Notes under the pieces: model-generated | The model's database searches: none | The model's input: the letters and a program-made list of their open reading frames with translations, nothing else | What the model was told of the DNA's origin: nothing | Made by a program: the position numbers and the translations under genes | From: the human T2T-CHM13v2.0 reference genome, Homo sapiens | Direction: 5' to 3' (one strand) | Length of the DNA: 64,000 nucleotides | Assembly (NCBI RefSeq): GCF_009914755.1 | Contig: NC_060928.1 | In this document: in pieces, positions 1,381-33,170 of the stretch | How the letters are laid out: every line of letters starts with the position of its first letter | Numbering within the stretch: the first letter of the stretch is position 1

Positions 1381-1480
1381 AAGCAGATTTTGCAAAGAGT
1401 GGTATGTAAAAAGCAATTATCATGTAAAAAAATCATTATGATTTACATGAGAAGTTAGGAGGTAGTAACTTCCATGACAG
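1381..1480 (+). pseudogene. ARG-like pseudo-exon 10
   Basis: Acceptor tatttttcag. Reads KQILQRVVCK(+A)SNYHVK(+A)NHYDLHEKLGGSNFHD-R (cf. AFP ..AKRSCGLFQKLGEYYLQNA). 100 nt = 98 + two A insertions. Donor reads ggatg instead of gtatg. Confidence 0.8.
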
Positions 1481-2239
1481 GGATGCCTGTAAGATAGTGT
1501 TCACATTTGTGCTTGATGGTTTTAGTTCATTCCGGATGCTGAGAGTTGCTAAGAGTTTACATCCAAACTTAAAAATGTCAGAGACCAAGGAAAAAAGTCA
1601 GCTGAGAATTAACCTAGCTCTCTCTGATGAGATAGACAGCAACCTAACTTTGGGTGCCTTCACACTACTTTCCAGGCCAATTCCTCTGATACCAGACAAT
1701 GCCCAGAGGTCAGGGTGCAAAGCAGGCTCTGACTGCCCTCCTGCAATCCCATAGAGACCTCTCCCTCACACCTGAACATTTAGTTTGGGGCTTTGCCTAT
1801 GATTTTGAGTCAAGACTGACAGAGATCTAATCCAGGGTTCCTTTTCCAGTTTCAAGTCAGATCCACAGAGCAAATTTCGCATTTTCATCACCAAGAAGAG
1901 AGCTAAACAGATATATTAGTTATTTGCCTGTGGGAACATACACCCTTTCTTGTGGGCAGGGAGCCTGGGAAATCCCCTCGTATTTCAAAAATTCAATTGT
2001 CAAAAAACAAAAGCCAATTTTGAGTAATCTTTGAGATTTTACTATAATTCTGTGTCAAAGCAGAGTATTGAGGAAAAGTTTAGTTTGCTATATTAGCCTA
2101 AGATATTGAGCTTAAATTAAATATCCAGAATAATGGATCCAGAAAAGCTATTCTTATTTTAGAGAGTTTTTGGCGTATTACTTTTTTTTTTAAAGAAATG
2201 TTGTATTCAGTTGCTAATGCCCAGGATAAAAATTAGATC

Positions 2240-2420
2240 TATGGTTCTCAAACTCCAGGGGGCCTCAAAATTTCCTGGAAAACTTACTAAAACGCACAGA
2301 CTCCCCCACCCCGAGTTTCAGATCCAGTAAGTCTGAGATGAGGCCTGAGAATCTGCACTTCTAACAAATTACCAGTGATGCCGATACTCTGGTTCAGGGT
2401 TCACACTTTGAGAACCACTT
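2240..2420. mobile_element. MER5A-like hAT-Charlie MITE
   Basis: Terminal inverted repeats tggttctcaaa / tttgagaacca and typical internal motif (gcctgagaatctgcacttctaacaa). Confidence 0.75.
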
Positions 2421-2967
2421 GATTAGGTTGACTGTTTCATTGATTGTTATAGAAACTAAATTCTTCCCGCAACTCCATTTCTATTATAAATGTAGTAATT
2501 GGTTCTAATACTTTGTTGTCCTCAACATGTAATTGCGTAGAGTCTTTCTTATTAAAATCTCTCTCCATATCTTCTGACTTCCACCACTACTCTCGTAGTT
2601 TAGGCCATCATCATCTCTCACCTGAATGGTGGAAACAGCTTTTGAACTGCTTCTTCCCTCACTTTGCCTCCTGCCCATCTCCAATCCATTCATTATAAAG
2701 AAATAATAACTATTTTAAAGACAATGTAAATCTGATTTTGTAGCTAGGCTTTCTTTCTTCTCCCTGCCTCCTCCTCTCTTTTCAAACCACCTCCATTCAA
2801 GAAAATAAAACGACATTCAATAACTTTCCAAAGACTCCCCTCTCACCCTCACCCCACTTCGCCTGGCTCATTCAGAGTTATTGTCAGATCTTAGCTTAGA
2901 TATCATTTCCTTTGGGCAGCCTGCTTGACCTCCATGGGATGGAATTAGATGCCGTTCTTTGTGCACT

Positions 2968-31600: not shown

Positions 31601-33010
31601 GACAGTGTCCATCCCTCTCCTCCTCCCTCCCCTTTCCACAGGCAAAGGAATATCTCCCTGTGGCCACCACCACCACAGGCCTACAGGGACTAATGCCAGG
31701 CTACCACTGATGTTCATTTAAGGCCCAAGTCCTCTTCTGTCAGCTTGTGGTAATGCTGCCAGGCCAATGACTCACAATTCAGGGCAGTGGGCTCCCATCT
31801 GGCCCAGGACCAGTCCAGAAATGCTGTCCAAGTGTCGAGGCCTAAAACTGGGGACCCCACGAGCCTGCTTGATACTCTGCTCCACTGTGGCCAAGCTAGT
31901 ACAAAACAGAGTCCCCTTTACTTTTCCCTCTGCTTTTCTCATGTAGAAGGAGTCTCTCACCATAGCCACCGTAGCTGGAAACGTGCTCAGTCTCGCCTGA
32001 AGCCAGCACATTTCAGAGTCTCAACCAAACCTACAGCATACTACTTGAGTATCATTGCTGGTTATAAAGGGCCCAGGGACCCTTTAGTCAGCAGATGATG
32101 AATCCTGCCATGACTGTGTCCTTCCCTTCTAGGCAGTGGGTTCACTTCTGGCCCAGGGAGTGTCTAGAAATGTTGTCAGGGTTTAGGGCCTGGAATGGGG
32201 GTCTCATGACTCTGCCTGGTGCTCCATCCTATTGTCGGTGAGCTAGTAACCAAGATGCAAGTCAAAATTCTTTTGATTCTTCCTTCTTCCCTCCTCAAGC
32301 ACAAGGAAGGAGTCACTTTAGTTGTTGTAAGCTGTGCAGCCTATGGTTGGGAGAAGAGTGTGCAGGCACTCCCTTAGCCACCCTGGCTGGTGTCTCACAA
32401 GGTTTTGTGCTGCTTAAATCCACTGCCTCTGACCCCAGCACAGCACTAGGGCTTGCCTAGAAGTTGCAATCCTTGTGGTCTAGACTGCATTTCATGTTTT
32501 TTTTAGCATCCCAGAGAACTTCAGCCCATGGTTCTGAGGCTTGCTGCAACTCAGATTCCAATGACTGAGACAGGCAATTTCCCTGTGGCTAGGGCTTGTC
32601 TAAATGCTCCCGCCATGGGTAGAAATGGGATGAATTCAGTATGGTTCTGCTTTCTACTGTGACAAAGTAGCACTAAGTTAAATGTAAAATCTCATAATCC
32701 TTGTGCTCTCCTTCTCCCAAGTGCACAGATTCTCCACACCATACAGCTGCTGGGGGATGGAGGATGGGTGGTTTCTGCAAGACTGTCTTTCCTACCCTCT
32801 TAATGCCTCTTTCAGTGATATGAAATTAAAACCAGGTATTTTGATTGCTCATCTGATTTTTGGTTCTTATGAAGGTTTTTTCTTTTTTTCTTTTTCTTTG
32901 TGTGTGTGTGTGTGTGTGTGTAAATCATTGTTAAATTTGGTGTTCCTGTTTGGTGGAGAAGAATGATGATTGGTGGAGGCTTCTATTTGGCCAATTTGTT
33001 CTGCCCTTCC
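25700..33010 (-). mobile_element. Old, near full-length L1MA-class LINE-1 (about L1MA1-3), degraded, with internal deletions
   Basis: 3' end motif gtatccatcacctcaagcatt. Minus-strand ORF2 remnants (27831-28019 [16 protein letters not shown], 28303-28578, 28789-28983). Long GC-richer 5'UTR ending near ttggccaatttg at ~33000. Confidence 0.85.
30569..30697 (-). mobile_element. Very young 5'-truncated AluY (AluYd8-type diagnostics)
   Basis: About 33 pure T plus 96 bp of Alu 3' end with all CpGs intact. Perfect 16-bp TSD gatctccagaatttct (30553-30568 / 30698-30713). Confidence 0.9.
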
Positions 33011-33126
33011 CAGCTAAGTCTTAGACATTTTTCTATTTTGTGATCATATGTATTTAGGTTTTTACTTTTTTTTGTCTTTTTTTTTTCCTCACAAATGTAA
33101 TTATTTGTTTGTTTGCTTTTCCTAAG

Positions 33127-33170
33127 GGTCCAAATGGATCAAAAAGTACTAGTGTCTATGGGGAGCTTAA
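33127..33170 (+). pseudogene. ARG-like pseudo-exon 14 (coding part with terminal stop)
   Basis: Strong acceptor tttgtttgcttttcctaag. GGT CCA AA- TGG ATC AAA AAG TAC TAG TGT CTA TGG GGA GCT TAA is 14 codons plus stop with a 1-nt deletion, the same layout as AFP GQKLISKTRAALGV* and ALB GKKLVAASQAALGL*. Confidence 0.65.

What the first reader, a model, noticed from the sequence alone, without database searches (positions are those of the whole stretch)
1381..33170. Fossil of an additional albumin-family gene hidden among the repeats
Seen: four plus-strand segments missed by the ORF track translate to albumin domain III peptides in the right order. Exon 10 ends in AG and exon 11 starts with G, restoring an Arg codon. 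Repaired lengths are 98 nt, 139 nt, about 133 nt and 45 coding nt. Known: these equal the recalled sizes of ALB exons 10, 11, 13 and the coding part of 14, and a fifth family member (Arg/Albfm1) is intact in rodents and reported dead in primates. Inference: this is that unitary pseudogene, tail-to-tail with RASSF6, its introns inflated by about 17 kb of L1. The gene loss itself is probably described; the exon-level lesion map may not be.
Basis: partly seen in the sequence, partly recalled or inferred. Interest (0 to 1): 0.85.

Follow-up and report, generated by a model that had tools for sequence, protein, structure and literature searches.

The report
Dead fifth albumin-family gene (ARG)

Summary
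On the + strand lie remnants of albumin-family exons 10 (1381-1480), 11 (4148-4460, split by a 174-nt truncated Alu), 13 (12550-12683) and 14 (33126-33170). The AG|G split Arg codon between exons 10 and 11 is there too.

A profile of 19 intact mammalian orthologues hits only the + strand, in exon order. It also finds exons 1, 3, 5, 6, 8 and 9 upstream of the window; a codon-distance scan adds exon 2. Exons 4, 7 and 12 are not detectable.

In a maximum-likelihood tree the read-through translation sits inside the ARG/Albfm1 clade (SH-aLRT 100). AU tests reject grouping it with AFP or AFM. A search of the whole human genome finds no other copy. It is therefore the unitary ARG pseudogene, lying between AFM and RASSF6.

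The loss is in print (Naidu et al. 2010). That paper was not held, so I cannot say whether its lesion map matches mine.

One side lead: the annotated lncRNAs LINC02499 and LOC107986287 overlap the dead gene on the same strand. One annotated exon starts exactly at the old exon 8 acceptor.

Interest is low: known biology, well confirmed.

The parts
1381..1480 (+). ARG pseudogene exon 10 (100 nt = 98 + a 2-nt insertion near 1420-1421). After frame correction there is an in-frame TAA at 1425-1427. A conserved Cys is now Tyr. The acceptor AG (1379-1380) is kept; the donor GT is now GG (1481-1482).
4148..4205 (+). ARG pseudogene exon 11, 5' part (1 nt + 19 codons, [19 protein letters not shown]). 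The acceptor TTTTAG is kept.
4206..4379 (+). 174-nt insertion inside exon 11. It consists of a 5'-truncated Alu (right arm), a short A-rich tail, and what looks like a diverged 12-nt target-site duplication.
   Evidence: The Alu identity comes from similarity to Alu copies in the ALB and AFP introns and from my reading of the sequence. The target-site duplication is read by eye.
4380..4460 (+). ARG pseudogene exon 11, 3' part (27 codons, [27 protein letters not shown]). The CC motif and the donor GTAACC are kept. The two parts together make 139 nt with no stop codon.
12550..12683 (+). ARG pseudogene exon 13 (134 nt = 133 + a 1-nt insertion at about 12665). The acceptor is CG and the donor is CC, so both are lost. 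The first Cys of the CC motif is now Ser.
33126..33170 (+). ARG pseudogene exon 14 coding part (GSKWIKKY*CLWGA*). The acceptor position reads AA. There is an internal TAG at 33150-33152. The final TAA sits at the orthologous stop. 33171-33180 resembles the non-coding end of ALB/AFP exon 14, with the donor GT replaced by AA.
7799..11173 (+). L1 fragments in the interval between exon 11 and exon 13, where exon 12 should lie.
   Evidence: 66-82% identity to the L1 at 14273-20527; L1 dsRBD domain, E 3.3e-26, at 9798-10136
14273..20527 (+). Full-length-sized L1 (6.26 kb) in intron 13.
   Evidence: hub repeat mask
25946..29433 (-). Older L1 fragment in intron 13, antisense to the pseudogene.
   Evidence: 62-68% identity over about 3.4 kb

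Best explanation
The segments are the last four recognisable exons (10, 11, 13, 14) of the human unitary pseudogene of ARG/Albfm1. This is the fifth member of the ALB-AFP-AFM tandem cluster. The dead gene starts about 28.3 kb left of the window and ends at 33170, roughly 61.5 kb in all, about 2 kb short of the 3' end of RASSF6 on the opposite strand.

It cannot make an albumin-like protein. Every recognisable exon except exon 9 and the two halves of exon 11 carries a stop or a frameshift. Exon 11 is split by an Alu. Exons 4, 7 and 12 are gone or eroded beyond detection. Several splice sites are mutated. Introns 11 and 13 have been swollen by L1 and Alu insertions.

Shown here: the exon remnants, their order, their lesions, orthology to ARG, and the absence of another copy. 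Inferred: that the loss is ancient and neutral, and that the gene once worked as a liver-secreted carrier protein like its relatives.
For: 1. Collinear, strand-specific hits. An hmmsearch with a profile of 19 orthologues was run over 7010 ORFs from both strands of 96 kb. All 12 hits with E below 0.1 are on the + strand and in profile order:
- e1 at -28303 (E 0.0034); e3 (8.6e-9)
- e5 (2.8e-4 and 0.066); e6 (3.9e-4)
- e8 (2e-12 and 3e-11); e9 (1.3e-18)
- e10 (0.016); e11 (2.2e-4 and 2e-9); e13 (8.4e-12)
The 9 hits with E above 0.1 (3.9 to 10) fall on both strands.

2. DNA profiles of ALB/AFP/AFM exons independently find e3, e5, e8, e9, e11 (in two halves) and e13, with E from 5.8e-5 to 5.7e-20.

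3. A codon-distance scan with the orthologue consensus recovers e1, e2, e3, e5, e6, e8, e9, e10, e11, e13 and e14 in order. The minus strand gives only 55 windows, all at distance 10-11.

4. Exon 14 needs 7 changes in 45 nt, the unique best of about 191,900 windows; the next best needs 11.

5. Exon sizes, phases and splice-site remnants match the family.

6. Phylogeny and AU tests place it within ARG.

7. The best 120 of 221 relatives of P0004 include about 80 ARG-type proteins from many mammalian orders. Among them are Mus caroli, Rattus, Phodopus (named Albfm1), Tupaia, rabbit, dog, horse and elephant. None is from a primate, while primate AFPs (Macaca, Lemur, Nycticebus) are listed.

8. A whole-genome search with horse ARG gave 28 matches, all in chr4 76.75-76.89 Mb. 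The Pfam PF00273 genome search gave 37 matches. The 34 with E up to 0.0083 all lie in the ALB/AFP/AFM cluster, GC or this locus; the other 3 have E above 4.

9. Reviews state that ARG is an inactive pseudogene in humans, citing Naidu et al. 2010 (passages seen).
Against: - Pfam found no Serum_albumin match in any of 428 + strand ORFs at E up to 1.
- Paralogue DNA profiles missed exons 10 and 14.
- A BLOSUM profile scan for exon 14 scored the site 17.4. That is below the eight best of 191,918 windows, which scored 20.06-25.11.
- The exact placement of small indels comes from my own frameshift-aware aligner against a consensus, so single-base positions are approximate.
- Orthologous synteny in other mammals was not tested here.
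- The genome search used a stricter first look, so weak copies elsewhere could be missed.
Confidence: 0.97

Rival explanations
1. The locus is not merely a fossil. Its remains are transcribed on the same strand as liver lncRNAs (LINC02499, LOC107986287) that reuse old ARG signals and may act as RNA.
For: - By the hub annotation, LINC02499 spans -27589..-7855 on the + strand. That covers exon remnants 2, 3 and most of 5.
- LOC107986287 exon 2 runs -2501..5266. Its first base is the first base of exon 8 found here at -2501, which follows TATGTTTTATAG. It covers exons 8-11.
- A review describes LINC02499 as liver-restricted, lower in hepatocellular carcinoma, and growth-inhibiting when overexpressed (passage seen).
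Against: - The LOC107986287 model is a prediction. I could not see the exons of LINC02499.
- No expression data were examined here.
- Transcription of a dead gene does not show function.
- Exon 1 (-28303..-28226) lies about 640 nt upstream of the annotated LINC02499 start.
Confidence: 0.15
2. The segments are a partial segmental duplicate of AFP or AFM, a different and younger duplicate, rather than the orthologue of ARG/Albfm1.
For: Paralogue exon profiles do hit exons 3, 5, 8, 9, 11 and 13. The best tblastn hits among the human paralogues are usually to AFP.
Against: - Identity to the 16 ARG rows is 46-65%, against 36-41% to mammalian AFP and 29-33% to AFM.
- The ARG clade that includes the pseudogene has SH-aLRT 100.
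- AU tests give p 4e-4 for AFP and 1.6e-7 for AFM.
Confidence: 0.01
3. The matches are chance similarities in AT-rich, repeat-rich DNA.
For: Pfam saw nothing. Exons 10 and 14 are short and individually weak against the paralogues.
Against: - There are twelve collinear + strand hits and none on the minus strand below E 0.1.
- Exon sizes and phases are exact.
- The exon 14 codon-distance hit is unique.
Confidence: 0.005

Closest known systems
ARG / Albfm1 (alpha-fetoprotein related gene; mostly named 'alpha-fetoprotein-like' in source annotations of non-primate mammals)
   Same: - Same clade.
- Same exon sizes and phases for exons 10, 11, 13 and 14.
- Same C-terminal exon with the stop at the same codon as horse and most others.
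- Same position next to AFM on the AFM strand (hub annotation).
   Different: - The human copy has stops, frameshifts, an Alu inside exon 11 and lost splice sites.
- It has no detectable exons 4, 7 or 12.
- Orthologues give full-length predicted proteins of about 610-620 residues.
AFP, AFM and ALB (the intact human paralogues 32-130 kb upstream)
   Same: - Three-domain albumin architecture with repeating exon sizes (133/212/133/98...), recovered from the genome.
- Tandem arrangement in the same orientation.
   Different: Only 29-41% identical over the window exons. They form separate clades.
Other human unitary pseudogenes such as GULOP and UOX (recalled, not examined here)
   Same: A single-copy gene that is intact in other mammals, disabled in place in primates, with no functional copy elsewhere.
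   Different: None tested here. The comparison is by analogy only.

Membership tests
ARG/Albfm1 orthologue | Closer in sequence to ARG/Albfm1 proteins than to AFP, AFM or ALB, and nested in their clade | tested here: met
   - SH-aLRT 100 for 16 ARG rows plus the pseudogene.
- Window-only exons are 46-65% identical to ARG, against at most 41% to the others.
- AU tests reject grouping with AFP or AFM.
- The protein named Albfm1 hits the same 16 rows first.
ARG/Albfm1 orthologue | Conserved synteny AFM - ARG - RASSF6 | tested here: inconclusive
   The human side is met: downstream of AFM on the same strand, tail-to-tail with RASSF6 (hub annotation). The order in other mammals could not be examined, because no mammalian genomes other than the window's own are held. 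Two Nannospalax models named 'afamin isoform' are ARG-like, which hints at adjacency but does not show it.
Albumin gene family (exon architecture) | Exon lengths and codon phases of the repeating four-exon domain unit | tested here: met
   Repaired lengths are 98, 139, 133 and 45 nt. There is a split codon between exons 10 and 11, and phase 0 into exon 14.
Albumin gene family (Pfam PF00273 Serum_albumin) | Match to the Pfam domain over its curated cut-off | tested here: not met
   - 0 of 428 window ORFs matched at E up to 1.
- In the genome search only exon 9, just left of the window, matched (27.5 bits, cut-off 34.4).
- This is expected for short, broken exons. The intact orthologues carry PF00273.
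Unitary pseudogene | Disabling lesions in the only copy, with no intact copy elsewhere in the genome | tested here: met
   Lesions are shown. All 28 matches of horse ARG fall in chr4 76.75-76.89 Mb (which used a stricter first look). The Pfam genome search shows only the known family loci plus this one.
Unitary pseudogene | Not a processed (retrotransposed) copy: introns and splice-site remnants are present | tested here: met
   Exons are separated by 1.4 to 20 kb. Acceptor or donor remnants sit at the exon edges.

The most novel reading that the evidence does not exclude
The dead ARG gene is not transcriptionally silent. The liver-specific lncRNA LINC02499, reported as a hepatocellular-carcinoma marker with growth-suppressing effects, and LOC107986287 would be transcripts of the ARG pseudogene itself. 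They lie on its strand, run over its exons, and reuse at least the old exon 8 acceptor. I found no paper in the searchable library that holds both names (0 papers).
Probability: 0.55. Interest if true: 0.3.

Novelty: already known. Interest (0 to 1): 0.15.

Why it matters
It confirms by computation that the gap between AFM and RASSF6, where RefSeq annotates only lncRNAs, holds the remains of a fifth albumin-family gene. It also gives base-level coordinates of its exons and lesions on the T2T assembly. That is useful for annotation and for dating the loss in primates. It also suggests an origin for the liver lncRNA LINC02499. It does not change what is known about the family.

Tried and rejected
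1. Whole-frame translation for Pfam. One search, with stops read as X, gave too much output. I switched to 428 stop-to-stop ORFs: no albumin hit.

2. tblastn between raw paralogue ORFs and the region, in both directions, was swamped by Alu and L1. It became useful once restricted to true exons.

3. Paralogue DNA profiles for exons 10 and 14 found nothing at the site, and the exon 14 profile did not even find AFM exon 14. This shows low power, not absence.

4. A BLOSUM profile scan for exon 14 scored the true site 17.4, outside the best eight. One of those, GIQIMRQCPSLSSS at 31585, has no acceptor AG and no stop in the right place, so I judged it chance.

5. An exon-4-like nhmmer hit at -31499..-31348 (E 0.0048) lies upstream of exon 1 and has no coding signature. 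I judged it noise, though this is not settled.

6. Exons 4, 7 and 12 were sought with a frameshift-aware aligner in their expected intervals. Costs were 19-25 on the + strand, against 20-24 on the minus strand and 20-25 in a control stretch. Positive controls gave 7-19.

7. The search for homologous proteins with the exon 13 ORF gave only 2 short ORF hits.

8. Naidu et al. 2010 was not held, by PMC id or by PubMed id. Li et al. 2017 does not mention ARG.

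Full report
**Checking the observation**

A Pfam scan of 428 + strand stop-to-stop ORFs gave no Serum_albumin match at E up to 1. These were ORFs of at least 20 aa in 1-35400 that were not mostly masked. The pieces are therefore too short and too damaged for a generic domain model.

The window's own genome could be searched. PF00273 found the exons of ALB, AFP, AFM and GC. It also gave one sub-threshold hit at chr4:76879447-76879572 (27.5 bits, E 0.0044). 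That is window -554..-429, just left of the window.

I fetched the 32 kb upstream of the window and the three paralogous genes. From them I recovered the paralogues' exon boundaries using AG/GT sites, open frames and recalled exon lengths.

**Comparison with the paralogues**

tblastn restricted to true paralogue exons, and nhmmer with DNA profiles of each exon, found these remnants on the + strand in gene order:

| Exon | Place (window coordinates) | nhmmer E |
|---|---|---|
| 3 | -26199..-26135 | 5.8e-5 |
| 5 | -7984..-7844 | 1.8e-15 |
| 8 | -2509..-2320 | 8e-13 |
| 9 | -562..-420 | 5.7e-20 |
| 11, first half | 4138-4203 | 1.4e-6 |
| 11, second half | 4375-4462 | 2.3e-6 |
| 13 | 12549-12666 | 8.3e-10 |

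Exons 10 and 14 were not found this way. The exon 14 profile also failed to find AFM's own exon 14, so that method lacks power for such short exons.

**Finding intact orthologues**

A search of the 1.84-billion-protein library with the exon 9 ORF found a 582-residue protein, P0004, that matched the remnants far better than AFP does.

A search with P0004 in the named library gave 221 relatives, of which the best 120 were listed. About 80 of those are a distinct family, mostly named 'alpha-fetoprotein-like'. They come from rodents, rabbit, tree shrew, carnivores, ungulates, bats, whales, afrotherians and xenarthrans. One is named Albfm1 (Phodopus, P0097). None is from a primate, although primate AFPs (Macaca, Lemur, Nycticebus) appear further down the list.

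P0097 hits the 16 rows I labelled ARG first, at 51-67% identity, and AFPs next, at 37-40%.

**Exon map against the orthologues**

I built a profile of 19 orthologues and searched all 7010 ORFs of at least 7 aa on both strands of window -32000..64000. All 12 hits with E below 0.1 are on the + strand and run in profile order:

| Exon | Place | E |
|---|---|---|
| 1 | -28303..-28244 | 0.0034 |
| 3 | -26188..-26075 | 8.6e-9 |
| 5 | two of its three pieces | 2.8e-4, 0.066 |
| 6 | -4781..-4680 | 3.9e-4 |
| 8 | two pieces | 2e-12, 3e-11 |
| 9 | -550..-410 | 1.3e-18 |
| 10 | 1428-1484 | 0.016 |
| 11 | 4131-4214 and 4374-4463 | 2.2e-4, 2e-9 |
| 13 | 12548-12688 | 8.4e-12 |

I then ran a scan that counts the fewest nucleotide changes needed for 15 codons to encode the orthologue consensus. 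It recovered the same exons plus exon 2 (-26403..-26338) and exon 14. The minus strand gave only 55 windows, all at the noise level of 10-11 changes.

Exon 14 needs 7 changes in 45 nt to encode GSKLIEKCQSLLGG plus stop. That is the single best of about 191,900 windows. The next best needs 11; the mean is 24.6 and the standard deviation 2.75.

Exons 4, 7 and 12 were sought in their expected intervals with a frameshift-aware aligner. They scored no better than the minus strand or a control stretch, while positive controls scored clearly better.

**Lesions in the window**

Single-base positions are approximate, because they come from my own aligner run against a consensus.

- **Exon 10, 1381-1480.**
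  - The acceptor AG is kept.
  - There is a 2-nt insertion near 1420-1421.
  - After frame correction there is a TAA at 1425-1427.
  - A conserved Cys is now Tyr.
  - The donor GT is now GG.
  - The exon ends in AG.
- **Exon 11, 4148-4460.**
  - It starts with G, giving AGG (Arg) where the consensus has R.
  - Both splice sites are kept, and all 46 codons are open.
  - A 174-nt insertion (a 5'-truncated Alu) sits between codons at 4206-4379.
  - The remaining 58 + 81 nt make exactly 139.
- **Exon 13, 12550-12683.**
  - The acceptor reads CG and the donor CC.
  - There is a 1-nt insertion near 12665.
  - The CC motif now reads SC.
- **Exon 14, 33126-33170.**
  - The acceptor position reads AA. 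Alternatively, one base was lost after the AG at 33125-33126.
  - There is a TAG at 33150-33152.
  - The TAA sits at the orthologous stop.

Upstream of the window: exon 1 has a TAG at codon 22. Exons 2, 3, 5, 6 and 8 have frameshifts. Exon 5 has two stops. Exon 9 is an open frame.

**Introns**

Similarity to the full-length-sized L1 at 14273-20527 marks 12,997 bases of L1 within 1381-33170. The blocks are 7799-11173 (+), 14273-20527 (+), 21042-21393 (+) and 25946-29433 (-).

Intron 13 is 20.4 kb here, against 0.6 kb in ALB and 1.3 kb in AFP.

**Orthology**

I built a maximum-likelihood tree of 38 rows. It held 16 ARG rows; 11 AFP rows (the Chrysemys row falls outside the mammalian AFP clade); 3 AFM; 4 ALB; 3 unassigned; and the read-through translation with X at breaks. 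The pseudogene falls inside the ARG clade (SH-aLRT 100). It is 66% identical over 322 columns to the rhinoceros protein.

Using only the window's exons 10, 11 and 13 (121 columns) gives the same placement. Identities are 46-65% to all 16 ARG rows, 36-41% to the 10 mammalian AFP rows, 29-33% to AFM and 30% to ALB.

AU tests reject a clade with AFP (p 4e-4) and with AFM (p 1.6e-7).

A whole-genome search with horse ARG gave 28 matches, all in chr4 76.75-76.89 Mb. That search used a stricter first look, so weak copies could be missed.

**Literature**

Two reviews say that the alpha-fetoprotein related gene is an inactive pseudogene in humans, and place it beside AFM in the same orientation. Both cite Naidu, Peterson and Spear 2010 (passages seen). 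A third paper holds the reference only.

The primary paper is not held. I recall, but could not check, that it describes multiple disabling mutations in primates. I therefore cannot say whether the exon-level map is new.

'Albfm1' occurs in 1 paper of the library (search listing only).

**Verdict**

The observation and the interpretation are both right. The feature is real and ordinary in kind, and its central claim is already published.

The one lead beyond the known story is this. The annotated lncRNAs LINC02499 (-27589..-7855) and LOC107986287 (exon 2 at -2501..5266) lie on the same strand over the dead exons. The second one's exon begins at the first base of exon 8. A review describes LINC02499 as a liver-specific lncRNA of unknown mechanism (passage seen). 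No paper in the library holds both 'LINC02499' and 'alpha-fetoprotein related gene'.

Noticed in passing
outside the window: -28303..-419 (loci L011, L010, L009): Remnants of ARG exons 1, 2, 3, 5, 6, 8 and 9 lie upstream of the window. They fall under or just beside the annotated lncRNAs LINC02499 (-27589..-7855) and LOC107986287; exon 1 sits about 640 nt upstream of the annotated LINC02499 start. Exon 2 of XR_007074699.1 starts at -2501, exactly the first base of exon 8. The annotated LINC02499 end (-7855) falls inside exon 5 (-7974..-7844).
   Followed up: partly
L011:1634-1700 (window about -28366..-28300): A TATA-like 'tataaag' lies about 57 nt upstream of the exon 1 ATG, with an AT-rich stretch just before it. 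This may be the old ARG promoter. No motif test was run.
   Followed up: no
window 21403-21506: The odd C-terminal tail of the Nannospalax model P0004 (residues 524-557) matches this stretch of intron 13 weakly (two linked pieces, E 0.55). It could be a conserved intronic element, an alternative exon, or chance.
   Followed up: no
window 6623-7379: A tandem repeat with a period of about 35 nt lies in the interval between exons 11 and 13. In the ORF list, open frames recur every 35 bases.
   Followed up: no
window 14273-20527: A full-length-sized L1 with a 788-codon stop-to-stop frame at 16549-18915. Whether its reading frames are intact was not examined.
   Followed up: no
outside the window: -31499..-31348: A weak exon-4-like nhmmer hit (E 0.0048) lies between AFM and ARG exon 1, out of order and without a coding signature. 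It is probably noise.
   Followed up: partly
proteins P0004, P0033, P0036, P0071, P0072, P0093: Source annotations name many ARG-type proteins 'alpha-fetoprotein', 'alpha-fetoprotein-like' or even 'afamin isoform' (Nannospalax). The family is therefore easy to overlook in databases. Rodent ARG proteins are the most diverged from the human remnant, at 46-49% over the window exons.
   Followed up: partly
window 1698-1747: The RefSeq 'enhancer' feature lies about 220 nt downstream of exon 10, in intron 10 of the dead gene.
   Followed up: no
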